The notes: generated by a model not told the origin, from the sequence alone. A DNA stretch of 64,000 bases from Candidatus Woesearchaeota archaeon (GCA_018655015.1 JABIKK010000011.1:111736-175735), one strand, 5' to 3'. Shown: positions 13,861 to 27,577, numbered from the stretch's first letter. Numbers and translations: made by a program.

Positions 13861-16800
13861 TTAAAGGTTGATTGTTAATTTTTCACCTAGTAGTTTACTT
13901 GTGTCGATTTGATCTGTAACTACACTTTCTTTTGCACCCGCATCATCTAAGCCATAAACAAGAATCATTAAACCATAATCTCCGCTAGTCATTCCTTCAT
14001 TTTTCATTTCTGAGGGGGTTATTTCCATGGTAGTGCTTCCCGTATCTGCAGACCTCATAACAATGGCTTGACCATTTTTTTCAATTACTGCTTTTAATTC
14101 TAGGTTGCTAGGGTCAAAGAAAATAAATTTGTAGTCTACTTCTTTATCTCTCAGACGAAGCTCTCTGAAAATCGATTCAATCATTAGATTCTCACTCTGA
14201 GGGTAAGATCTTATTGCAATGACGTTATTTTGAGGATCATATCTTAGATTAAAAGTTATCCTCCCTGGAAAGGAATCATAAATGGAACATTCATTTTCTG
14301 CTCTCAAAAGCTTACAAGTTCCCCTTGCATAAACTATGCATTGAGGGTCTTCACAAAATCCTAAATTTTGATCAACATATTCTGCACATAAAGGATTATC
14401 TGAACAAAATGAAGCCTTGCTTTCTCCCGGATCTTCATTCATGGAAGAATGAGATAATGAAGGTGGTTGTGAAGGGTTGGTCTGTTGATTATTATTTGTG
14501 TCGCTACTAATTTGCTTATTTTCAGTAGATACTGCTAAAGTTCTGTATAAATCTGCAAGTCCAAGTCTGAGCTCTATCTGAACTTTGGGGTCCGCTAATC
14601 CATTGTTATCGATTACATCTATGTAAATGTTAATTGCTTTTTCATATTCATCAGTTGAGATTGCAGATTTAATTCTCTCTTTTGCATCTTTGATATCTTC
14701 TGTTGTTAAGTAAACGGATTTTAATCCAAGTTTTTTTACGTAATCATTAATTCTATCTACGGCCCCTTGCGTTGCATTAGGTAATGTTTTTGTAAAGTTG
14801 TTCCAATCTATATCTTTGTTTACTGAATATTCTGTAACTATGTTTTTTGCTGAAGGTAGGTGTAACCAACAGAATCCTAAATTTCTTCCTTCATTGGGCT
14901 TTGGCCCTTCCCAGCATTCTCCAACTTCTTTCCAATCTGCGTCATCTCCAGGAACGAATGTTGAACATACTCTTGTTATTCCTGTGTCCAATAGCCCTGA
15001 TGAAAATCCACCTGCAACAACAGCTCCAGTTTTTGTAGCAGCATTAGTGTAAGGTCCACTTAAACTTGAGCCTGAAGGATTACATTGTTCTGCAGTTTGT
15101 ATTTCAGCTTGACCTGCTTCTTTTTCCGCCATTTTTTGTGCAACCCAATTTGCTGCAAAGCCAGAAGTTGTCTTACCAAATCCACATTCTTCCCTTACAC
15201 CATATGTTGGACTGCTGTAAGCCATACATACTTGGTTGTAGCCTTCGGGGGCATTGAAGTCAATGTTTTCTGAACTAAATGCATCAGGAGTTAGTCTCTT
15301 ATTTCTTACTAACCAGGCTATTGGAAGTCCACTTTGACCATCGATTGACTGGTGCTTTAGATAAACTGAAAATGAGAGTGGTTCATTTGCTCCAGCATAC
15401 ATTCTGTAGTATACCTTGTATGTTGATTGTGGAGGGAATGGAATATCTGAGTAAGGTACTACATCCATTATTGCTGTGAATTGTGGAGGACTTTCTGGTT
15501 GCATTAATCTATCTGTGAATGATCCGACCCCTGGAACCTTGCCATATACTGCGGACTTACAAACTTCTGCGCCTATCTCGGGTAGAGCTCCACCAGAGAA
15601 TTGTGCGAAAGTGTTTTTTGCATAATCTTGAGTGAAGAATTTTAATCCGTTGATGGATTGGTCCATGCTTGCATCAAAGTCGGTATATTCTGATCCTTCA
15701 TTATCATGAATTTTATTTAATATTGTTCCAACTAATCCACTTTTAATATTGAATATTGCGATTGCTTCTTTCCAAAGGACATCACATATGTAATAACTTC
15801 TTAACATGTCACATATTCCAACAGACTCGTCATCAACTAAAGATCTTTTTAGACAATCAGAATATTCCATTAACACAGTTCTAATGTTTTGTAGACCTGC
15901 ATAAATTCCAGTGATACAAACGGGCATTACAACTTGTCCGCCATCAAATCCTATATCTGTTCCCGGTATACCCCAGTTATGTAATCCTAAAATTGTGCTT
16001 CCAATAATTCCTGTTTCTGCCACATTATCAACTTTCCAGGTTCCACCTAAATCAAATCTACTTGGTGGACAAAGAACTGGATCACATGCGTTGAATAATA
16101 ATTTACATTCTGTTGGACTGTAGAATTCTACACAGGAAGGCCCTTTTGTAATTGGATCGTTTCTAATTGCATAATCAATTCCATTACAAATTACTTGATC
16201 TCTGTTTGAAGCTTTTGCTCTGTTAATTGTGCCAACACATGATTCAACTTTCTTAAGATCTGCAGTATTTTTCCCTTCTTTGTTCCACTTTTCTGTTGTA
16301 GCGCTTAGACTATTTCCTCCAAATTCTGTGTCATCTGCTCTTATTTCCTCATTAGGGTTTATACGACCAAATATTCTTGGTTCAAGCATTCTCCCTCCAG
16401 AAGTGTAGTCTACCTCGGCGTAGTGTGTTGCATCAATAGTCATCCTATGGATTTTGCCTGCATTTGGCCCGTCAGTATAGTAAGTTACCTTGGGGATATG
16501 TTTTACTCTTTGTTCAACTGAAGTTGAGGAGAGGGTGTATGTTTCTCCATCTGGAGAAAGTAATGATGTTGCATCTGGTTCGTTGCTTCCAAAGAGAATT
16601 AGTCCTCCCTTAGGAGAAGGATAGGCATAATTTGTTCTAGAACGTGCTAATAAAACTGCTACATTTGCCTCTTCTTCTATTTTTTGTGGAGCCCAATCTG
16701 GATGTTTTATCTTTAATTCTCCGGTTTTTCTTTCAATCCACATTTCTTCTACGTTTTGTGAAAGTTGTGAATCCCCAGGATCTAATTTGAATTTTGCCAA

Positions 16801-19761
16801 GTTACCCACAAATACTTTGTTATCATTTGGTAAGTAGGCTGACGATTGAGAATTATCTAATGTTGAAAGGTAATCACTATGGTCGGAATAACTTGGATCA
16901 GAGCGAAGTTCCCTAAACATCTCGGCATTTCTCTCTTCTACTGCAATTTGTAAGTTGGCTCTTTCTTCATCGGATAGTACATCACCTGAAGGATTCAATC
17001 TTTTTAATTCTTCATCATAGTTTTTATCTTCTTTTATAGCTACATAGGCATTAAGGTAATCCTTTGTGTTTTGGGAGCTTGAGTTTTGAATCATTCTCTT
17101 TTGAAGATACGCAAGATTTTCTAGTTGTACACTATTTTCTGGAGTTTTTTTAATACCACTCAGATCATCTGCATAACTATCTTTGGAAGCATATTCGTAT
17201 GCATCTTCAGTTTCTTTTAGAATTTGATTATATGCATCTTCGTTTTCAAAAACACATTCGTCCATGGCTAAACCTTGCCTTTTACATAACTCTCCTTGTT
17301 GTTCCCAGAATATCTCTGATGCTCTATCTTTTGCTCTACCTGAACCTGAACCAACCGTTGCCTTAAGGAAATTCCATGCAGCAATTGCAGTAAATACTCC
17401 GAAACAGAATTTCTTCCATGCCTCATGGATCTTTCCAACTTTTTCCAAAGTATCGTCTAACTTTAATAGCAATTTTTCTGTTTTGTCAATTTCTGATTCT
17501 ATTGAAGCTGAGAATAATGGTAGGTCGAATGCTCTTTTTTCAATTGGAATATGTAAATTAAATCTTGCCGCACTAAATGCTTTTTCGATATTTGGACTTA
17601 CAATTATATGTGCTTCATTGTGAAGTTCGACACCTTCAAGGATTACTAGTTGGGTTTTAGATGTGTCTTTGTTTTTTATTGGAATACTTAAACCATTTCT
17701 ATCGTCTCTTAAAATTGTCATATCACTCTTAAAAGTTTTATCTGTGGGAGAGAGAACTAAAGAGTTAGAATTTATCTTTTTAACAATCCAAGGTGAATAT
17801 CCTTCCATGAAAGGCATTGCTTCTCCCTCATGTAATGTATGTTTTTCTTTGGCTATGGATCCATCTGGCTTGTAAACCTTAACTGTTGCAGTTGATTTGC
17901 TCCCTTCTAGTTGATAATCTGTAACGCTTGAACCATCTAAGACTACAGTCACTAGTTCATCATTCTTTTCCTTCAGATCTATTTCGGCCTTAAGACTTTG
18001 TCCAGAAGGGTTTTTTATATATGCAGTTAGTAGGTCTACCCTACTTTGGATTTTAACAGGGGAAATTATTGATTCTGCTTCTGTTTTTTTGTCACCATTA
18101 TATGCTATAATCATTTCAAGTAATCTATTGTATTCTATTATTGCTTGATTATGATTTTTTAATTTCGCATGATAAATAACTGCTTTGTTATATTGTGCGT
18201 AGAACTCGGGGATTAAATTTTTGTCTCCACTTGCTGCACCCTCGTAACTAACTTCCGTGTCTCCATCTACTAAGGAAACTACGCTTGCATATTCGTCGGC
18301 AGATAGTTGGTAAAGTTCATTTGCTTTTTTATCATCGGGGATTGTTCCAAGAGAAAACTCTGCGGTTTGGTAAGTTTTCCAGTAAGTCCCTAGGAATTCA
18401 TTTAATCTTGCCCTTGCTAAATTGTGAATGATTTCAAAACTGCCATCTTTAGTTAACATCGCGGCAGTATCAGATTCTATTTGTGTAAGTAATGATTGCA
18501 TTGCTTTTGCATGTTCTTTTGAAACTGATGTAGGGTTCTCTTGAAATATATCTACACAGGGATTTAATGTTTTTAGTGCTGCATTGTAGTTGTCGGGTGT
18601 TGTTGCTGTACGAAGTTTTTCTTCTACATCTTTAACAGCAAAAGATAATTCACTTCCTTTTGCAATTGGTCCGCATCTCAGGACGAAGGTTCCAGTAATT
18701 CCCATGTTTTCATTTTTGGCAATAGGCAAGTCATCAAATTCAATCTCTCCCGCTGCAGACCTTACAGATATCGGAAATCCTGCAGTTTGTAGTCTGCCAC
18801 TAGGTGTCCTGAAATCTGCATGTAAATTATTGTCCCTTAGTTCTATTCTCTCTAAAGTTATTCCTGATCCAGGGTAGATTGATTCTCCTTCAGCTACAGT
18901 ATGTGTTTCTGGCACTCCGTCTCTAAGAACCATAATGTCTAAAGTTCTCCCACCAGATTTAATATCTTTAAGATAAACATTAAACTTGTCAAAAACCTGA
19001 CCTGGAGAATAAAACCTACTTCTCCTTAACGTTCTTGATTTTTTTCCTTTTTCTATTCTTAGATCATCTTCTATGAGATTACCATTGTTATCATAAATAT
19101 CAAATATTGCATAGTTAGAAGATATTTCTTCAGCTTCAATGTAGATGTTTAAATATTTTTGATTTTCCCTGTTGCTTCTTTCTATAGATTTTTCTCTAAT
19201 AACCATTTTTGTTGGGCTTTTTCCAATTCCTGAAGAAACATCAAACAAAACTCTTGAATCAACTTCGATTATGATTTCATCTGGAACATTAGATTCTTTT
19301 GGAATTCTTGCAATAGGGATTTGTAAGTAACCCATGTTATCATAGGTTAATGGTTGTGTTCTGTCTCTGAAGTATCTCGGTCTTCCAACTCTTACAGGCA
19401 GATCTTCTGGCACAGTTACAACATTGTATGAAAGAATATCTATGTCATGAATTTTTGGGACTGTGATAGCCGGATTACTTGGCGTTCCTGAAAGTATTGC
19501 ATATACTAATGCTCCCTGATCTTCTAAAATGCCTGTTCGGAGTATTGATGGTTGATACTCTTTTACGTTGATTATTATGTCTTCCCCTATTATGTCTGAA
19601 ACTGTTGGAGATTCTGTAAGACGTCTATCTAATTCATCCCCTATACTTCTTGCTTGGTCCCCTATATTTGTTTTAACTATTTGACCTGATGCTATTGGTA
19701 ACGTTAGCACTAGGAAAATCATAAACATTGAAATTAGTTTTTTAAGTTTCATTTTATTCAA
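13861..19761 (-). CDS. Giant secreted/surface protein (1966 aa) with N-terminal signal peptide
   Basis: Uninterrupted 5.9 kb ORF. N-terminus MNKMKLKKLISMFMIFLVLTLPIASGQ. A Cys-rich module lies around CVGTINRAKASNRDQVICNGIDY...CKLLFNACDPVLCPP, and CSDNPLCAEY...CEDPQC near the C-terminus. No TM outside the signal peptide. Confidence 0.6.
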   Translation of the reverse strand: MNKMKLKKLISMFMIFLVLTLPIASGQIVKTNIGDQARSIGDELDRRLTESPTVSDIIGEDIIINVKEYQPSILRTGILEDQGALVYAILSGTPSNPAITVPKIHDIDILSYNVVTVPEDLPVRVGRPRYFRDRTQPLTYDNMGYLQIPIARIPKESNVPDEIIIEVDSRVLFDVSSGIGKSPTKMVIREKSIERSNRENQKYLNIYIEAEEISSNYAIFDIYDNNGNLIEDDLRIEKGKKSRTLRRSRFYSPGQVFDKFNVYLKDIKSGGRTLDIMVLRDGVPETHTVAEGESIYPGSGITLERIELRDNNLHADFRTPSGRLQTAGFPISVRSAAGEIEFDDLPIAKNENMGITGTFVLRCGPIAKGSELSFAVKDVEEKLRTATTPDNYNAALKTLNPCVDIFQENPTSVSKEHAKAMQSLLTQIESDTAAMLTKDGSFEIIHNLARARLNEFLGTYWKTYQTAEFSLGTIPDDKKANELYQLSADEYASVVSLVDGDTEVSYEGAASGDKNLIPEFYAQYNKAVIYHAKLKNHNQAIIEYNRLLEMIIAYNGDKKTEAESIISPVKIQSRVDLLTAYIKNPSGQSLKAEIDLKEKNDELVTVVLDGSSVTDYQLEGSKSTATVKVYKPDGSIAKEKHTLHEGEAMPFMEGYSPWIVKKINSNSLVLSPTDKTFKSDMTILRDDRNGLSIPIKNKDTSKTQLVILEGVELHNEAHIIVSPNIEKAFSAARFNLHIPIEKRAFDLPLFSASIESEIDKTEKLLLKLDDTLEKVGKIHEAWKKFCFGVFTAIAAWNFLKATVGSGSGRAKDRASEIFWEQQGELCKRQGLAMDECVFENEDAYNQILKETEDAYEYASKDSYADDLSGIKKTPENSVQLENLAYLQKRMIQNSSSQNTKDYLNAYVAIKEDKNYDEELKRLNPSGDVLSDEERANLQIAVEERNAEMFRELRSDPSYSDHSDYLSTLDNSQSSAYLPNDNKVFVGNLAKFKLDPGDSQLSQNVEEMWIERKTGELKIKHPDWAPQKIEEEANVAVLLARSRTNYAYPSPKGGLILFGSNEPDATSLLSPDGETYTLSSTSVEQRVKHIPKVTYYTDGPNAGKIHRMTIDATHYAEVDYTSGGRMLEPRIFGRINPNEEIRADDTEFGGNSLSATTEKWNKEGKNTADLKKVESCVGTINRAKASNRDQVICNGIDYAIRNDPITKGPSCVEFYSPTECKLLFNACDPVLCPPSRFDLGGTWKVDNVAETGIIGSTILGLHNWGIPGTDIGFDGGQVVMPVCITGIYAGLQNIRTVLMEYSDCLKRSLVDDESVGICDMLRSYYICDVLWKEAIAIFNIKSGLVGTILNKIHDNEGSEYTDFDASMDQSINGLKFFTQDYAKNTFAQFSGGALPEIGAEVCKSAVYGKVPGVGSFTDRLMQPESPPQFTAIMDVVPYSDIPFPPQSTYKVYYRMYAGANEPLSFSVYLKHQSIDGQSGLPIAWLVRNKRLTPDAFSSENIDFNAPEGYNQVCMAYSSPTYGVREECGFGKTTSGFAANWVAQKMAEKEAGQAEIQTAEQCNPSGSSLSGPYTNAATKTGAVVAGGFSSGLLDTGITRVCSTFVPGDDADWKEVGECWEGPKPNEGRNLGFCWLHLPSAKNIVTEYSVNKDIDWNNFTKTLPNATQGAVDRINDYVKKLGLKSVYLTTEDIKDAKERIKSAISTDEYEKAINIYIDVIDNNGLADPKVQIELRLGLADLYRTLAVSTENKQISSDTNNNQQTNPSQPPSLSHSSMNEDPGESKASFCSDNPLCAEYVDQNLGFCEDPQCIVYARGTCKLLRAENECSIYDSFPGRITFNLRYDPQNNVIAIRSYPQSENLMIESIFRELRLRDKEVDYKFIFFDPSNLELKAVIEKNGQAIVMRSADTGSTTMEITPSEMKNEGMTSGDYGLMILVYGLDDAGAKESVVTDQIDTSKLLGEKLTINL

Positions 19762-21736
19762 ATGTTGGATTCCTCATTTTTTTACTAAATTGTCCTTGAC
19801 TCGTATAAACATTATTTAATTCTTCAAATGATGTCGGTGTTTTCCCCCTATAAGAGTATAGTGCAATTTTATTTGAAGTAGCCAATACTCTTCGATCTAC
19901 ATTCCATGATGTTGATCCCCCTCCAGCTACAACTGAGTCTAATTCAATTGGATCAATTTTTTGTTGCGTACATTTAGTTTCTGTTAATCCAACAATGCCA
20001 CCAATGCCCCTCTTTGGAACTTCTGAACAAATTTCTATTTCTCTTTCTGGGAAATTAAAACCGCCAGATGTTTCAACCATCAATGTTGATGATACTTTGT
20101 AATTACCTGCGACCAATTTTAACTTTTCATTTGAAGGATAGTAGTAAGTAGTAAAATATTCTTTGTCTTCATTCTCAAATTGGAATAGTATGCTTTCTGT
20201 GTCATAAGGAGATCTTAGTATCCCTTCATCATCAATTATTATTTCAACAGGTAATGCGTAATAAGGCTCCAATGGGACGTTAACCATTCCTTCTTGGTTA
20301 GTATCTACTTCAAAACTAGATGTGTGATATCCTTGTTTAGATGCAATCATTTTTCCACCAATACATTGTGGGAATTGGGTTGTTAGTGAGTATGTGCTTC
20401 CTTCTTGCCTGGTTCTACCGGATTCACATTCGGTGAAAACGCACTGTAATGAAATGTCTGCACCATCTAATGGGACAGATGACCCATCTGCAGCTATACC
20501 TAATGCTGTAACTTTTAGAGTTGTGTCCTTTCTTTCACATATTCCAGGATCGTCTTCAAATTGTGGAACTAAGAATTGATTTTTCTTAGCTTGATTATTA
20601 TCAATCACTGCAACGAAAGGAAATTGGAAAGTGTAATCTTCCTCAGTTAAGGTTGCAAGCACTGGGAATTTTAGGTCATACACAAAATGATAATCATTTA
20701 AACAAAATAGAGGGAGTAAAAATCTTGCTGCTTCGTTTTCTGATGTGAAAGGTTTACCCCTTAGTAGTTCTGAATCTGTTCCAATGACGTCCATCATAAA
20801 TGGCCAGGAAGGGGATGAGATTAATGAAACCGTTAGGTCTTTTTCTTTTTTCTTAAATGTGTCATGTATTAATTGTTCATCTTTTCTATCCGTTATCCTA
20901 AAGTCTGTTCCTTCTATCTTTAATGTAGGAATATTTAATGCTAAGATGGATTTTAGGTCTTGAGCTACTTGTGTTTTCAACCAGGTTCTTGGAGTACATT
21001 CAAAGTCTACGCCTGAGAAAGGAATTTCATCGTAAACAACCATTGTTTCTAATGTGAAGTTTTCAACGAAACCAGTTCTAGTTTCATACTCGAAGAGTTC
21101 TAAGGCACGAGAGTATAATCTGCCTAACGGTACATTTGAAATTGTTCTGAACTTTGTGAAGGTTTGTGCAGTTTCCTTATATTTAACTTCTAGAAGCATT
21201 GAAACATCCGCTATTACTGCCTCATTCCCAATTTCAATTTCAATCTCTGGAGAATTGTGTTCTATAATGTAGCCTTCACTTTTGAATATAGTGTAATCAT
21301 TTAAACAAGAATCTAATTCTGACTCCATGAATTGTTCTAACTCAGTTTCCATTTCTTGTTTTGAAGGTACTTGTGTTTTTTCTAGATTATTTTGTGTTAA
21401 GAATGACCAGTAGGGAACAGTTAATCCATCATTACCAAAGATGCTTAATCTATTTGTTAATGGGTTATATGCTGTTGGAGGAAAGTCTCCTTCAGGCGTT
21501 ATTATATGTCCACCCTTTAATCCAAGTTCTGCAGTTCCATCATCTAAGGATTGTTGTAAGCAATCATTTGTAAAAGAATGTACTTTTTCTATTTGACTTA
21601 TTGTTGGTTGCTCTGATAAAGTTTCTTTTTTTAGTGAATCGAAAATTTGTTCTCTAAAGTATACTCCGGTTATTACTGCTGCAAGTATTACTATTCCTGC
21701 AATTATGAAAGCTGTAGCTTGGGCCTTTTTATTCAT
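19754..21736 (-). CDS. Membrane-anchored extracellular protein (660 aa) with an N-terminal signal-anchor
   Basis: N-terminus MNKKAQATAFIIAGIVILAAVITGVYF, then a soluble Cys-containing region. Its stop overlaps the start of the giant gene by 8 nt. Confidence 0.5.
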   Translation of the reverse strand: MNKKAQATAFIIAGIVILAAVITGVYFREQIFDSLKKETLSEQPTISQIEKVHSFTNDCLQQSLDDGTAELGLKGGHIITPEGDFPPTAYNPLTNRLSIFGNDGLTVPYWSFLTQNNLEKTQVPSKQEMETELEQFMESELDSCLNDYTIFKSEGYIIEHNSPEIEIEIGNEAVIADVSMLLEVKYKETAQTFTKFRTISNVPLGRLYSRALELFEYETRTGFVENFTLETMVVYDEIPFSGVDFECTPRTWLKTQVAQDLKSILALNIPTLKIEGTDFRITDRKDEQLIHDTFKKKEKDLTVSLISSPSWPFMMDVIGTDSELLRGKPFTSENEAARFLLPLFCLNDYHFVYDLKFPVLATLTEEDYTFQFPFVAVIDNNQAKKNQFLVPQFEDDPGICERKDTTLKVTALGIAADGSSVPLDGADISLQCVFTECESGRTRQEGSTYSLTTQFPQCIGGKMIASKQGYHTSSFEVDTNQEGMVNVPLEPYYALPVEIIIDDEGILRSPYDTESILFQFENEDKEYFTTYYYPSNEKLKLVAGNYKVSSTLMVETSGGFNFPEREIEICSEVPKRGIGGIVGLTETKCTQQKIDPIELDSVVAGGGSTSWNVDRRVLATSNKIALYSYRGKTPTSFEELNNVYTSQGQFSKKMRNPTFE

Positions 21737-24449: not shown

Positions 24450-24522
24450 AAGCCACCGAAGGGACTTGAACCCTCAACCTGTGCTTTACAAGAGCACTGC
24501 TCTACCATTGAGCCACGGTGGC
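24450..24522 (-). tRNA. tRNA-Thr (anticodon UGU)
   Basis: The reverse complement GCCACCGTGGCTCAATGGTAGAGCAGTGCTCTTGTAAAGCACAGGTTGAGGGTTCAAGTCCCTTCGGTGGCT folds as a cloverleaf. Anticodon arm is GTGCT/CTTGTAA/AGCAC. Confidence 0.85.
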
Positions 24523-24753: not shown

Positions 24754-25125
24754 GTGTCTATGGACGTTTTAACGTTAGTTTTGATGGGAATAGTTTTGAT
24801 ATTATTATTGCTCCTTTGGTTAAAAAGGAAGGAGCTCATTGTGTTGAGAGGATTGCATGAAGAGTTGAGATTTTCTCATAAATCTAATGTTGTGAAACAT
24901 GGAAAGTCATTTGAACAGTTATTTCCTTTTATGAGTTCATTTCCATACGATGTGAACAATTTTAGATTTATTGGATCTCCAATCGATGGAATCAGTTTTG
25001 AAGATGATGCAATTGTATTTGTCGAGTTTAAAACTGGAAGTTCAAGCCTATCTAAAAAACAGAGAAAGATAAGAGATTTAGTTAATTCTAAGAAAATTAA
25101 ATGGAAAGAAATAAGGGATGAATAA
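24754..25125 (+). CDS. Membrane-anchored Hjc-like PD-(D/E)XK nuclease-fold protein
   Basis: N-terminal TM helix (VLTLVLMGIVLILLLLLWL). Then GSPIDGISFEDDAIVFVEFKTGSSSLSKKQRKIRDL, giving the D ... ExK spacing and the 'S..LS..Q' region typical of archaeal Holliday-junction resolvase Hjc. Confidence 0.45.
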   Translation: MSMDVLTLVLMGIVLILLLLLWLKRKELIVLRGLHEELRFSHKSNVVKHGKSFEQLFPFMSSFPYDVNNFRFIGSPIDGISFEDDAIVFVEFKTGSSSLSKKQRKIRDLVNSKKIKWKEIRDE

Positions 25126-25145
25126 AAAAGGAAAAAGATGAAGAA

Positions 25146-25544
25146 TTATTTCTTCATCATTAAACCCCAAAGACCTAGAATAACTAGTAGAACACCTACT
25201 ACTTTCTGCATCATTGGAGTTGGTCTGGCAAATAGGAGTATAACACCTGCAACACCCACAATTAATATTGATAAGTGCATTGCAGCTAATTCCTGATCCT
25301 TAGAACTTTTCCTAACGGGTGCAGACACTGCTGTTGCCCTTCTAGTTGAAGTTCTTCTAGGAGCCTTTCTCCTTGTTGAAGTTCTCTTTGTAGTAGACCT
25401 CTTTCTAGTTGTGGATCTTCTAGCTGTAGAACGTCTTGTTGTGGATCTTCTAGCCGTAGACCTCTTTCTAGTTGTGGATCTTCTAGCTGTAGAACGTCTT
25501 CTTGTTGCTTTTCTTGTTGCTTTTCTTGCAGCCATGTAATTCAC
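25146..25544 (-). CDS. Arg/Ser/Thr-rich tandem-repeat protein with C-terminal double TM anchor
   Basis: The N-terminal ~90 aa are (RRSTARRSTTRKRSTARRSTT)n. The C-terminus has two hydrophobic helices (LSILIVGVAGVILLF and VGVLLVILGLWGLMM). Confidence 0.45.
   Translation of the reverse strand: MNYMAARKATRKATRRRSTARRSTTRKRSTARRSTTRRSTARRSTTRKRSTTKRTSTRRKAPRRTSTRRATAVSAPVRKSSKDQELAAMHLSILIVGVAGVILLFARPTPMMQKVVGVLLVILGLWGLMMKK
25380..25525. repeat. 63-nt (21-codon) tandem repeat, about 2.3 copies, inside the Arg/Ser/Thr-rich gene
   Basis: agacctctttctagttgtggatcttctagctgtagaacgtctt recurs with a period of 63 nt (25394 and 25457). Confidence 0.6.
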
Positions 25545-25632
25545 CTCTTATAATGAGTATAATAGGTAAGTCTGACCTGTAGGACTATATAAATGTTTTT
25601 TATTTTTTGTAGTGGTTAATATTAGGAAAAAG

Positions 25633-25707
25633 CGCCCCGACTGGGATTCGAACCCAGGTCCCCGGCTCGAAAAGCCGGAATGATTGACCGAACTACACTA
25701 TCGGGGC
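25633..25707 (-). tRNA. tRNA-Glu (anticodon UUC)
   Basis: The reverse complement GCCCCGATAGTGTAGTTCGGTCAATCATTCCGGCTTTTCGAGCCGGGGACCTGGGTTCGAATCCCAGTCGGGGCG has the same architecture as canonical archaeal tRNA-Glu. Confidence 0.85.
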
Positions 25708-25762: not shown

Positions 25763-25878
25763 TGAGCCCAGCCGGATTTGAACCGGCGACCTCCAGCTTT
25801 CTTAGAGCTTGTTTCCTTTTCTAAAACGAAAAGGCGTCATATAAGACTGGCGCTCTAACCAGACTAAGCTACGGGCTC
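25763..25878 (-). tRNA. Intron-containing tRNA. Predicted mature anticodon is UAU (tRNA-Ile), with a ~41-nt intron at the canonical 37/38 position.
   Basis: 5' exon is GAGCCCGTAGCTTAGTCTGGTTAGAGCGCCAGTCTTATA. The intron is TGACGCC...CTAAGAA. 3' exon is AGCTGGAGGTCGCCGGTTCAAATCCGGCTGGGCTCA. Anticodon stem CCAGT/GCTGG closes only after removing the 41 nt. Confidence 0.7.
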
Positions 25879-27175: not shown

Positions 27176-27577
27176 ATGAGTTTTTCTATGAGACAAGTAA
27201 TTCTGGAGATAAATGGTCTAGAAATGGTTAATTTTAGTCCCAATAATTATAATGGGGAAATGAATCTTAGCTATACTGTTGACGGTGAGAAGAAGGTACA
27301 GGTTGTAAGATTTGATTTGACCCGTAAAATAGAAATTCTTGTTGGAAGTATTTTGAAGTTTGTTAAGTCGCAAGGAGATCAAGATGTTGATGAAGATGAT
27401 CTGGTAGGGAGTTTGTTTGTAAAAAGGTTAAAGGATGAGGATAAAATTGAAGAGAGATTACTTAATTTTTTTGCTAAACTTTGTGAAAAAGTAAGGTTTA
27501 TGAAGATGGACAAAAATCATGTCAACTATATGAAAATATTTCATGAGGTAAGGGGGAGTAAGGTCGTCCTTAATTAA
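27176..27577 (+). CDS. Hypothetical protein (133 aa) immediately upstream of kae1 (stop/start 1 nt apart)
   Basis: No motif recognised. Position suggests co-transcription with kae1. Confidence 0.3.
   Translation: MSFSMRQVILEINGLEMVNFSPNNYNGEMNLSYTVDGEKKVQVVRFDLTRKIEILVGSILKFVKSQGDQDVDEDDLVGSLFVKRLKDEDKIEERLLNFFAKLCEKVRFMKMDKNHVNYMKIFHEVRGSKVVLN

What the first reader, a model, noticed from the sequence alone, without database searches (positions are those of the whole stretch)
24754..25544. Membrane-anchored Hjc-like nuclease convergent with an Arg/Ser/Thr 21-aa tandem-repeat membrane protein
- 24754-25125 has the Hjc-like PD-(D/E)XK arrangement (IDGI ... VEFK ... LSKKQ), but it is preceded by a TM helix. 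Holliday-junction resolvases are normally soluble.
- The convergent neighbour (25146-25544) is an extremely basic (RRSTARRSTTRKRSTARRSTT)n repeat protein anchored by two C-terminal TM helices.
- Its DNA shows 63-nt tandem repeats, which suggests repeat-number variation.
- A membrane-tethered nuclease next to a membrane-tethered polycationic and possibly nucleic-acid-binding protein is an odd pair.
- One possibility is DNA uptake or degradation at the membrane. Another is defence against incoming DNA.
Basis: partly seen in the sequence, partly recalled or inferred. Interest (0 to 1): 0.5.

Follow-up and report, generated by a model that had tools for sequence, protein, structure and literature searches.

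The report
Known membrane nuclease, orphan polycationic neighbour
A marine Woesearchaeota genome carries an ordinary member of a long-known family of membrane-anchored mini-nucleases, back to back with a small, previously undescribed membrane protein that has a protamine-like arginine-rich tail; the pairing is real and conserved in one narrow clade, but nothing shows that the two work together.

Summary
Gene A (24754-25125, +) has an N-terminal membrane helix and a PD-(D/E)XK core. Gene B (25146-25535, -) has an 81-residue tail with 33 Arg/Lys, a 63-nt tandem duplication and two C-terminal membrane helices.

Gene A is not odd. It matches Pfam PF10107 (COG4741) at 75 bits. The membrane helix of that family, its predicted cytosolic nuclease domain and the same "guard against foreign DNA" speculation were published in 2005. 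It is Hjc-like only at superfamily level, and its predicted fold is closest to VRR-NUC.

Gene B is a real gene with a conserved TATA box and Shine-Dalgarno site. Five independent assemblies give an identical sequence. Its family is tiny and unnamed: 4 clusters among 1.84 billion representatives. The hairpin is nearly invariant and the tail runs from about 30 to 115 residues.

B always lies tail to tail with A, inside a housekeeping block flanked by tRNA genes. Only 7 of 80 species-level PF10107 loci have it. Charge distribution puts both the nuclease domain and the tail on the cytoplasmic face, which argues against extracellular DNA capture. No defence or viral context was found.

A joint role on nucleic acid at the inner membrane face is plausible but untested. 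Interest is modest.

The parts
24754..25125 (+). Gene A: a PF10107 (Endonuc_Holl, COG4741) membrane-anchored minimal PD-(D/E)XK nuclease. It is 123 aa from the GTG at 24754, and more likely 121 aa from the ATG at 24760.
   Evidence: Pfam PF10107 scores E 7.5e-21 and 75 bits against a cut-off of 23.8. All 120 listed of the 135 homologues (E <= 0.001) carry PF10107. The gene caller on the identical NCBI contig aa.
24766..24822 (+). N-terminal membrane anchor helix of A (residues about 5-23). It has no basic n-region in front and is followed by KRK.
   Evidence: Hydropathy is 3.1. In 108 of 111 homologues more K+R lie after the helix than before it (means 3.9 and 0.17). Sequence conservation is low: 39% mean pairwise identity against 77% for the core.
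24883..25122 (+). Nuclease core of A (residues 44-123). The catalytic candidates are E54 (24913-24915), D78 (24985-24987), E91 (25024-25026) and K93 (25030-25032).
25146..25535 (-). Gene B: a 129-aa protein with a polycationic tail and a two-helix membrane hairpin (ATG at 25535, stop codon at 25146-25148).
   Evidence: Protein P0121 is 100% identical. There are 14 distinct homologues. B has no Pfam, NCBIfam or PADLOC family.
25293..25535 (-). Cytoplasmic tail of B (residues 1-81), rich in Arg/Lys, Ser/Thr and Ala and built from RRSTA-like pentapeptides.
   Evidence: The tail has 33 K/R, 30 S/T and 1 D/E. Its length varies from about 30 to 115 residues between species. It has only sub-threshold compositional matches to the H1-like protein Hc2 (19 bits against a cut-off of 40).
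25372..25504 (.). 63-nt (21-aa) tandem duplication inside the tail-coding region, 2.1 copies.
   Evidence: TRF score 203 with 87% matches. The best 60-nt identity at a shift of 63 is 0.92, and a 50-nt stretch is repeated at 98%.
25149..25292 (-). Nearly invariant two-helix hairpin of B (residues 82-129). TM1 is 25227-25289 and TM2 is 25155-25214, with the loop ARPTPMMQK and the C-terminus GLWGLMMKK.
   Evidence: 32 of 57 columns are invariant and 35 columns are invariant in A2. Only 4 clusters match among 1.84 billion representatives.
25541..25547 (-). Shine-Dalgarno sequence GAGGTGA of B.
   Evidence: GAGGTGA, or GGGGTGA in one lineage, is conserved 5 to 9 nt upstream of the ATG in all 15 distinct upstream sequences.
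25586..25601 (-). Archaeal promoter of B: AAAAAACATTTATATA (a BRE-like A-run plus a TATA box).
   Evidence: TTTATATA, preceded by an A-rich run, is conserved 52-70 nt upstream of the ATG in 15 distinct loci. That it acts as a promoter is inferred from the archaeal consensus (own knowledge).
25137..25158 (.). 9-bp perfect inverted repeat spanning the 20-bp gap between A and B and the last codons of B (MMKK). On the B strand a T-run follows it.
   Evidence: The stem is GAUGAAGAA / UUCUUCAUC. The fold z-score is only -1.6. The sequence after the stop codon is similar in the other loci.
25632..25707 (-). tRNA-Glu(UUC) immediately upstream of B on the same strand; part of the conserved block.
   Evidence: The same tRNA lies upstream of B in L001, L005, L010 and L091.
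24451..24522 (-). tRNA-Thr(UGU) on the far side of A, co-oriented with B; part of the conserved block.
   Evidence: It is found in the same position in L001, L005, L010, L091, L097 and L098.

Best explanation
**What is shown**
- Gene A is an ordinary member of the PF10107/COG4741 family. This is a minimal PD-(D/E)XK nuclease (E54, D78, E91, K93) joined by a long helix to a single N-terminal hydrophobic helix.
- Gene B is a real gene with its own conserved TATA box and strong ribosome-binding site. It is restricted to one subclade of Woesearchaeota.
- B consists of a nearly invariant two-helix hairpin and a protamine-like tail of variable length.
- In that clade B always lies tail to tail with A, 6-32 bp apart. 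The pair sits in a block made of tRNA-Glu, B, A (reversed) and tRNA-Thr, among housekeeping genes.

**What is inferred**
- The helix of A is an uncleaved anchor with its N-terminus outside, so the nuclease sits on the cytoplasmic face. The tail of B (net charge about +32) also stays in the cytoplasm.
- The most likely mechanism is that the tail of B binds a polyanion, most plausibly DNA, and holds it against the inner face of the membrane. That is the surface where the tethered nuclease A works.
- B would then be a clade-specific accessory that raises the local substrate concentration for A, or organises that substrate. It is not an obligate partner, because A is found without B in most lineages.
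- The housekeeping context points to a cellular role in handling the cell's own or internalised DNA, not to a defence system.
For: **Family of A**
- Pfam PF10107 at 75 bits against a cut-off of 23.8.
- 135 homologues (E <= 0.001); all 120 listed carry PF10107.
- Invariant E, D, E and K.
- AlphaFold2 pLDDT of 88.5 (full length) and 84 (domain) with the secondary-structure order helix, three strands, helix.
- The family, its membrane helix and its cytosolic orientation were already described in PMC1189080.

**Topology**
- K+R after the helix against before it average 3.9 and 0.17, with 108 of 111 homologues showing the excess after the helix.
- The tail of B has 33 K/R and 1 D/E.

**B is real**
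- Conserved hairpin.
- Conserved Shine-Dalgarno site and TATA box.
- Identical gene in independent assemblies.

**Linkage**
- A is convergent and adjacent in 26 of 27 loci with B; the 27th contig ends right after B.
- The pair persists where the GTPase-Kae1 synteny on the B side is absent (L010/L091, L098, L099).
- B was never found away from A.

**Housekeeping context**.
Against: - The genes are convergent, so they are not co-transcribed.
- 73 of the 80 best-matching species-representative PF10107 loci have no B-like or other basic membrane neighbour.
- The whole block, including the tRNA genes, is syntenic in this narrow clade. A 20-bp gap is a very small target for rearrangement, so adjacency could be inherited rather than selected.
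- The anchor helix of A is poorly conserved (39% identity) while the hairpin of B is nearly invariant. This argues against a specific helix-helix complex between them.
- No activity, binding, expression or topology has been measured for either protein. There is no solved structure of any PF10107 member.
- Basic low-complexity tails also bind RNA, ribosomes, acidic lipids and polyphosphate.
Confidence: 0.45

Rival explanations
1. The two genes are independent neighbours, and their adjacency is inherited synteny within a narrow clade. A does whatever PF10107 proteins do in all other lineages. B has an unrelated job. It could tether ribosomes or mRNA to the membrane, as the basic decapeptide repeats of the eukaryotic ribosome receptor p180 do. 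It could tether the nucleoid. It could bind acidic lipids or polyphosphate.
For: - The genes are convergent and B has its own conserved promoter.
- A occurs without B in 73 of 80 species-level loci.
- The flanking tRNA genes are conserved with the pair.
- The neighbourhood is related to translation: tRNA genes, a YchF-like GTPase and Kae1.
- The anchor of A is not conserved while the hairpin of B is. This suggests B interacts with itself or with something other than A.
Against: - B has never been found apart from A in any collection searched.
- The pair survives at least two changes of context on the B side.
- Both products are predicted to lie at the same membrane face, and both are of a kind that binds nucleic acid.
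Confidence: 0.35
2. The pair captures and degrades incoming or extracellular DNA at the membrane, either as a DNA-uptake and nucleotide-scavenging device or as a defence against foreign DNA.
For: [quoted passage not shown]
- The best-matching PF10107 loci come largely from DPANN archaea and CPR/Patescibacteria. These organisms are generally thought to depend on external nucleotides (own knowledge). The search was seeded with a DPANN sequence, so this distribution is biased.
- In this window only, a type I phosphodiesterase/nucleotide pyrophosphatase and adenylate kinase lie nearby.
Against: - There is no basic n-region and no signal-peptide-like short h-region. The charge bias puts the nuclease inside (PMC1189080 reached the same prediction).
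- A tail with a net charge of about +32 cannot plausibly be exported.
- PADLOC gives no significant hit.
- The context is housekeeping genes, not a defence island.
- B is absent from 2.9 million viral contigs and A has only 4 relatives there.
- The phosphodiesterase gene is found near the pair only in a contig identical to the window (L093), and adenylate kinase only in the closest relatives L008, L088 and L093.
Confidence: 0.1
3. Gene B, or its repeat, is an artefact: a spurious ORF on low-complexity DNA or a collapsed or mis-assembled repeat.
For: One JGI contig that is 100% identical to the window ends exactly at the start of the repeat region (L093). The repeat therefore does break some short-read assemblies.
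Against: - The gene is identical in four other independent assemblies, and a fifth differs at one base; their flanks differ by a few SNPs.
- There are 14 distinct orthologues with an invariant hairpin, a conserved Shine-Dalgarno site and a conserved TATA box.
Confidence: 0.02

Closest known systems
[quoted passage not shown]
   Same: Gene A is a member. It scores above the Pfam cut-off, has the same length, the same N-terminal membrane helix, the same E...D...ExK motif and the same minimal core.
   Different: Nothing material. It is one of many DPANN copies. The family itself has no biochemically characterised member and no solved structure that I could find.
Archaeal Holliday junction resolvase Hjc/Hje (PF01870)
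   Different: There is no sequence-level match to Hjc. Gene A is membrane-anchored rather than soluble, and its core is smaller. Structurally it is nearer to VRR-NUC.
VRR-NUC domain (stand-alone bacterial and viral proteins 4qbn/4qbo; FAN1 nuclease domain)
Histone H1-like and protamine-like basic proteins (chlamydial Hc2, PF07382)
   Same: The B tail has the same kind of composition: runs rich in R/K, S/T and A, almost no acidic residues, and repeat-driven length variation. It gives weak compositional hits.
   Different: The scores are far below the cut-offs (19 bits against 40, and 14.5 bits against 135). B is membrane-anchored by a conserved hairpin, and Hc2 is soluble.
Membrane proteins with basic, repeat-rich cytoplasmic tails that tether nucleic acid or ribosomes: the RS domain of the lamin B receptor, the ribosome receptor p180/RRBP1, and the actinobacterial cell division protein CrgA (own knowledge, analogy only)
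   Same: The architecture is the same: a membrane anchor plus a cytoplasmic polybasic and S/T-rich segment, partly tandemly repeated.
   Different: There is no homology. These proteins come from different domains of life, and the comparison is functional analogy that was not tested here.

Membership tests
PF10107 / COG4741 (Endonuc_Holl) | Match to the family profile above the curated gathering score | tested here: met
   75 bits against 23.8, E 7.5e-21, profile positions 72-158 of 159. All 120 listed homologues carry PF10107.
PF10107 / COG4741 (Endonuc_Holl) | Conserved E-(V/I)D-E(V/I)K catalytic motif (PMC1189080) | tested here: met
   E54, I77-D78 and E91-F92-K93 are present. E, D, E and K are invariant in 37 sequences. 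The middle residue of ExK is F here and across this branch.
PF10107 / COG4741 (Endonuc_Holl) | Strongly hydrophobic N-terminal helix in front of the nuclease domain | tested here: met
   Residues 5-23 have hydropathy 3.1. The mean across 111 homologues is 2.9. In the model the helix is continuous with the linker.
PF10107 / COG4741 (Endonuc_Holl) | Minimal PD-(D/E)XK core (4 strands, 2 helices) | tested here: inconclusive
PF10107 / COG4741 (Endonuc_Holl) | Nuclease activity | not testable with these tools
   No member appears to have been characterised in the searched literature, and no PDB relative exists.
Hjc/Hje archaeal Holliday junction resolvase | Sequence membership in the Hjc family | tested here: not met
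   There is no Hjc hit in Pfam at E <= 1 and none among PDB sequences.
Hjc/Hje archaeal Holliday junction resolvase | Close structural match to the Hjc fold | tested here: inconclusive
Hjc/Hje archaeal Holliday junction resolvase | Soluble homodimer that cleaves four-way junctions | not testable with these tools
   Gene A carries a membrane anchor. Oligomeric state and substrate are unknown.
VRR-NUC (PF08774) | Sequence membership | tested here: not met
   There is no PF08774 hit. The resemblance is structural only.
Histone H1-like Hc2 (PF07382 / NF038052) | Profile match above the cut-off for gene B | tested here: not met
   19 bits against 40 and 14.5 bits against 135. The match is compositional only.
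Known anti-phage defence systems (PADLOC) | Match of A or B to a defence-system component, and location in a defence island | tested here: not met
   The best hit for A is Aga_Cas4-like_Nuc at E 0.0014 and 16.5 bits over 45 residues. B gives nothing. The neighbours are tRNA genes, adenylate kinase, a GTPase and Kae1.
Sec-type secreted protein (the 'secreted endonuclease' annotation) | Basic n-region, a short h-region and a cleavage site | tested here: not met
   The N-terminal flank has a median length of 0 residues with a mean of 0.17 K/R. The uncharged stretch has a median length of 21 residues. Positive charges follow the helix. No dedicated signal-peptide predictor was available.

The most novel reading that the evidence does not exclude
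B and A together would form a previously unrecognised module for handling nucleic acid at the membrane surface in a subclade of DPANN archaea. An invariant, probably oligomeric, hairpin protein would display a protamine-like tail of adjustable length. The tail would capture DNA at the inner face of the membrane: either the cell's own chromosome during division, or DNA just imported from a host. It would present that DNA to the tethered PF10107 nuclease. This would also give the first functional handle on the uncharacterised PF10107 family.
Probability: 0.12. Interest if true: 0.6.

Novelty: new member of a known kind. Interest (0 to 1): 0.3.

Why it matters
PF10107/COG4741 is widespread in archaea and in small-genome bacteria. 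It has been predicted to be a membrane-tethered nuclease since 2005, yet it has no known function or structure. A fixed partner could give a clue to its substrate, even though that partner exists in only one clade.

Gene B is also a clean example of a core-like orphan gene. Its membrane part is frozen while its charged tail grows and shrinks by repeat slippage.

As it stands, the nuclease is an ordinary family member. The partnership rests on gene order alone, so the practical value is modest.

Tried and rejected
- **Sequence and profile searches of the PDB.** No relative of A has a solved structure.
- **Family searches for B and for its hairpin alone.** Pfam, NCBIfam and PADLOC gave only sub-threshold hydrophobic or compositional matches.
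- **Search for analogous partners.** I looked for any protein with a net basic patch plus a membrane helix within 900 bp of the nuclease in 80 species-level PF10107 loci. Outside the B clade nothing convincing was found.
- **Clustering of all neighbours of PF10107 in those loci.** Only lineage-specific housekeeping synteny emerged (Elp3-like, Pelota-like, ABCE1-like genes and a GTPase). There is no universal partner.
- **Profile search with the hairpin against 1.84 billion representatives.** Only 4 clusters matched and no wider family appeared.
- **Viral contig scans.** B is absent and A is rare.
- **Literature searches** for PF10107, COG4741, Endonuc_Holl and DPANN nuclease salvage. These returned only the 2005, 2010 and 2012 superfamily surveys and incidental mentions.
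- **ATP-synthase c-subunit idea, rejected.** The hairpin has an ARPT loop, but the second helix has no carboxylate (sequence).

Full report
**Observation**

The window is from a marine Candidatus Woesearchaeota (DPANN) genome, judged by the source names of identical and near-identical proteins and contigs.

Gene A (24754-25125, +, 123 aa) has a very hydrophobic stretch at residues 5-23, followed by KRK and then the motifs PIDG, VEFK and LSKKQ. Most homologues, and the gene call on an identical NCBI contig, start two codons later at the ATG at 24760, giving 121 aa.

Gene B is listed mechanically as 25146-25544. That GTG lies inside a Shine-Dalgarno sequence (GAGGTGA, 25541-25547). The real start is the ATG at 25535, giving the 129-aa protein P0121. 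Its first 81 residues hold 33 Arg/Lys, 30 Ser/Thr and one acidic residue. Residues 83-103 and 108-127 are hydrophobic.

Tandem Repeats Finder reports a 63-nt unit in 2.1 copies with 87% matches at 25372-25504, with 15, 30 and 33-nt sub-periods that reflect an RRSTA-like pentapeptide. A 50-nt stretch is duplicated at 98% identity.

**The repeat is not an assembly artefact**

The identical 129-aa protein is encoded on nine contigs. Five were read, from an NCBI MAG and four ENA assemblies. In four of them the 390-nt gene is base-for-base identical, and in the fifth it differs at one base. Three of these contigs differ from the window at a few flanking positions (99.3-99.6% identity), so they come from different populations.

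One JGI contig that is 100% identical to the window does end at the repeat boundary (L093). The repeat therefore can break short-read assemblies. No copy-number difference is seen among these near-identical strains. Between species the whole protein ranges from 81 to 167 aa, and all of the difference is in the tail.

**What gene A is**

Gene A matches Pfam PF10107 (Endonuc_Holl) at 75 bits against a gathering score of 23.8. All 120 listed of its 135 database homologues carry PF10107. In a 37-sequence alignment spanning DPANN archaea and a SAR202 bacterium, E54, D78, E91 and K93 are invariant and Q103 is nearly so.

No member of the family has a solved structure detectable by sequence.

**The membrane helix is a family trait**

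Feder and Bujnicki (2005, PMC1189080) described COG4741 as follows:
- a roughly 120-residue minimal PD-(D/E)XK core with an E-(V/I)D-E(V/I)K motif;
- a strongly hydrophobic N-terminal helix;
- a nuclease domain predicted to be cytosolic by three topology programs.

They speculated about toxins, guarding against foreign DNA, and nucleotide scavenging. The gene is Hjc-like only at superfamily level, because no Hjc profile matches it.

**Topology**

Across 111 homologues the segment before the helix has a median length of 0 residues and a mean of 0.17 Lys/Arg. The 15 residues after the helix carry a mean of 3.9, and 108 of 111 have more positive charge after than before. The uncharged stretch has a median length of 21 residues.

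This is the signature of an uncleaved anchor with its N-terminus outside, not of a Sec signal peptide. By the positive-inside rule the nuclease domain is cytoplasmic. For B, a tail with a net charge of about +32 and a C-terminal KK place both ends in the cytoplasm. These are inferences; no dedicated predictor or experiment was available. They make action on DNA outside the cell unlikely.

**What gene B is**

B has no Pfam, NCBIfam or PADLOC family. The only hits are sub-threshold compositional matches to H1-like proteins, or hydrophobic matches.

Sixteen database homologues and further loci give 14 distinct sequences. All share the same plan:
- the N-terminus MA(A/R)(R/K);
- a tail rich in R/K, S/T and A, of about 30 to 115 residues, with 0-2 acidic residues;
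- the hairpin DLAAMYLSILIVGVAGIILLFARPTxMMQKVIGILLVILGLWGLMMKK, in which 32-35 columns are invariant.

A profile of the hairpin, run against 1.84 billion cluster representatives, finds only four clusters. All have the same architecture.

Every locus has TTTATATA preceded by an A-rich run 52-70 nt upstream of the ATG, and GAGGTGA (GGGGTGA in one lineage) 5 to 9 nt upstream. B is therefore a real gene, and probably well expressed, although expression is an inference.

The hairpin contains small-residue motifs (GVAG, GLWG). It is far more conserved than A's anchor helix, which has 39% mean pairwise identity in the same genomes, against 77% for A's core. This suggests that the hairpin packs against itself or against some conserved partner. 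It does not suggest a specific contact with A's anchor helix.

**Is the pair linked?**

In 26 of 27 loci that contain B, A lies convergent and 6-32 bp away. The 27th contig ends just after B. These loci represent 13 distinct A/B sequence pairs.

Most loci share the order Kae1, a 133-aa ORF, a YchF-like GTPase, tRNA-Glu, B, A (reversed), tRNA-Thr. The pair persists where the GTPase and Kae1 genes are absent from the B side (L010/L091, L098, L099). It also persists where the A side differs: adenylate kinase is found there only in the closest relatives.

B was never found away from A in the genome, metagenome or protein collections. That is positive evidence for linkage, but it is limited in three ways:
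- The clade is narrow.
- The flanking tRNA genes are conserved too.
- A 20-bp gap between two 3' ends is a very small target for rearrangement.

Conversely, only 7 of the 80 best-matching species-representative PF10107 loci (L008-L014, the closest relatives) have B. A generic search for any basic membrane protein next to the other 73 found nothing convincing. A therefore functions without B in most lineages.

**Context and the defence idea**

The window's neighbours are a type I phosphodiesterase, a small membrane protein, tRNA-Val, adenylate kinase, tRNA-Thr, tRNA-Glu, a further tRNA, a YchF-like GTPase and Kae1. In other DPANN lineages PF10107 sits among ORFs that look, from their sequences, like Elp3, Pelota and ABCE1. 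PADLOC gives no significant hit. B is absent from 2.9 million viral contigs and A has four weak relatives there. This is housekeeping context, not a defence island or a mobile element.

**Most likely mechanism**

Steps that are shown:
- A belongs to PF10107 and has an intact catalytic tetrad.
- B is a real protein with a hairpin and a polycationic tail.
- The two genes are fixed neighbours in one clade.

Steps that are inferred:
- Both the nuclease domain and the tail face the cytoplasm.
- The tail binds a polyanion, most plausibly DNA, at the inner membrane surface.
- The tethered nuclease acts on that DNA.
- B is a clade-specific accessory, not an obligate partner.

I give this joint mechanism about 0.45. 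The main rival, at about 0.35, is that the genes are simply inherited neighbours and B has another job, such as tethering ribosomes, mRNA or the nucleoid, or binding lipid or polyphosphate.

**Comparison and novelty**

A is a new member of a known kind: PF10107/COG4741, whose membrane anchor has been known since 2005. It is not a member of the Hjc or VRR-NUC families by sequence.

B is an undescribed and very narrow orphan family. Its architecture recalls membrane proteins with basic tethering tails: the RS domain of the lamin B receptor, the ribosome receptor p180 and the actinobacterial cell division protein CrgA. These comparisons rest on my own knowledge and are analogy only.

The pairing is a reasonable lead for anyone studying PF10107, but it rests on gene order alone. 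Interest is 0.3.

Noticed in passing
window 25763-25878 (-): Rfam finds a sixth tRNA of 116 nt (56.8 bits) that ARAGORN missed. Its length and sequence suggest an intron-containing archaeal tRNA lying between tRNA-Glu and the GTPase gene.
   Followed up: partly
window 25586-25601 (-) and the equivalent positions in L001-L014 and L088-L101: A sequence close to AAAAAACATTTATATA lies upstream of gene B in 15 distinct loci. It looks like a textbook archaeal BRE/TATA promoter. A conserved TTAACCACT motif lies further upstream.
   Followed up: partly
window 25137-25158: A perfect 9-bp inverted repeat is formed by the intergenic GATGAAGAA and the invariant last codons of B (MMKK), with a T-run after it on the B strand. 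It may act as a terminator and may add nucleotide-level constraint on B's C-terminus. The fold z-score is only -1.6.
   Followed up: partly
window 13861-21736 (-): Two large adjacent ORFs (1966 aa and 660 aa) have no Pfam match at E <= 0.001. ORFs of about 660 aa lie next to the nuclease gene in L005, L006 and L010, so they may belong to the wider syntenic block; their homology to the window ORF was not tested.
   Followed up: no
L020-L081 (Iainarchaeum and other DPANN loci): In other DPANN lineages the PF10107 gene sits in a conserved block with an Elp3-like radical SAM gene, a Pelota-like gene and an ABCE1-like gene. These identifications are by eye from the sequences. A membrane nuclease thus keeps company with genes related to translation.
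   Followed up: no
L017 3711-3917 (+): In a freshwater Woesearchaeota genome (RIFCSPLOWO2_01_FULL_32_21) that lacks B, a 69-aa very basic soluble ORF ends exactly where the PF10107 gene starts, on the same strand. It could be a different basic partner or a coincidence.
   Followed up: no
L093 (JGI contig Ga0257127_1014253): This contig is 100% identical to the window and ends at residue 81 of B, exactly at the edge of the repeat-coding region. It shows that the repeat fragments some short-read assemblies.
   Followed up: yes
P0138 (149 aa): This B homologue diverges after the middle of the second membrane helix into unrelated sequence. It is probably a frameshift or an assembly error in that record.
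   Followed up: no
window 27176-27577 (+): A 133-aa ORF with no Pfam family lies between the YchF-like GTPase and Kae1 genes. It is conserved at 42-77% identity in all syntenic loci.
   Followed up: no
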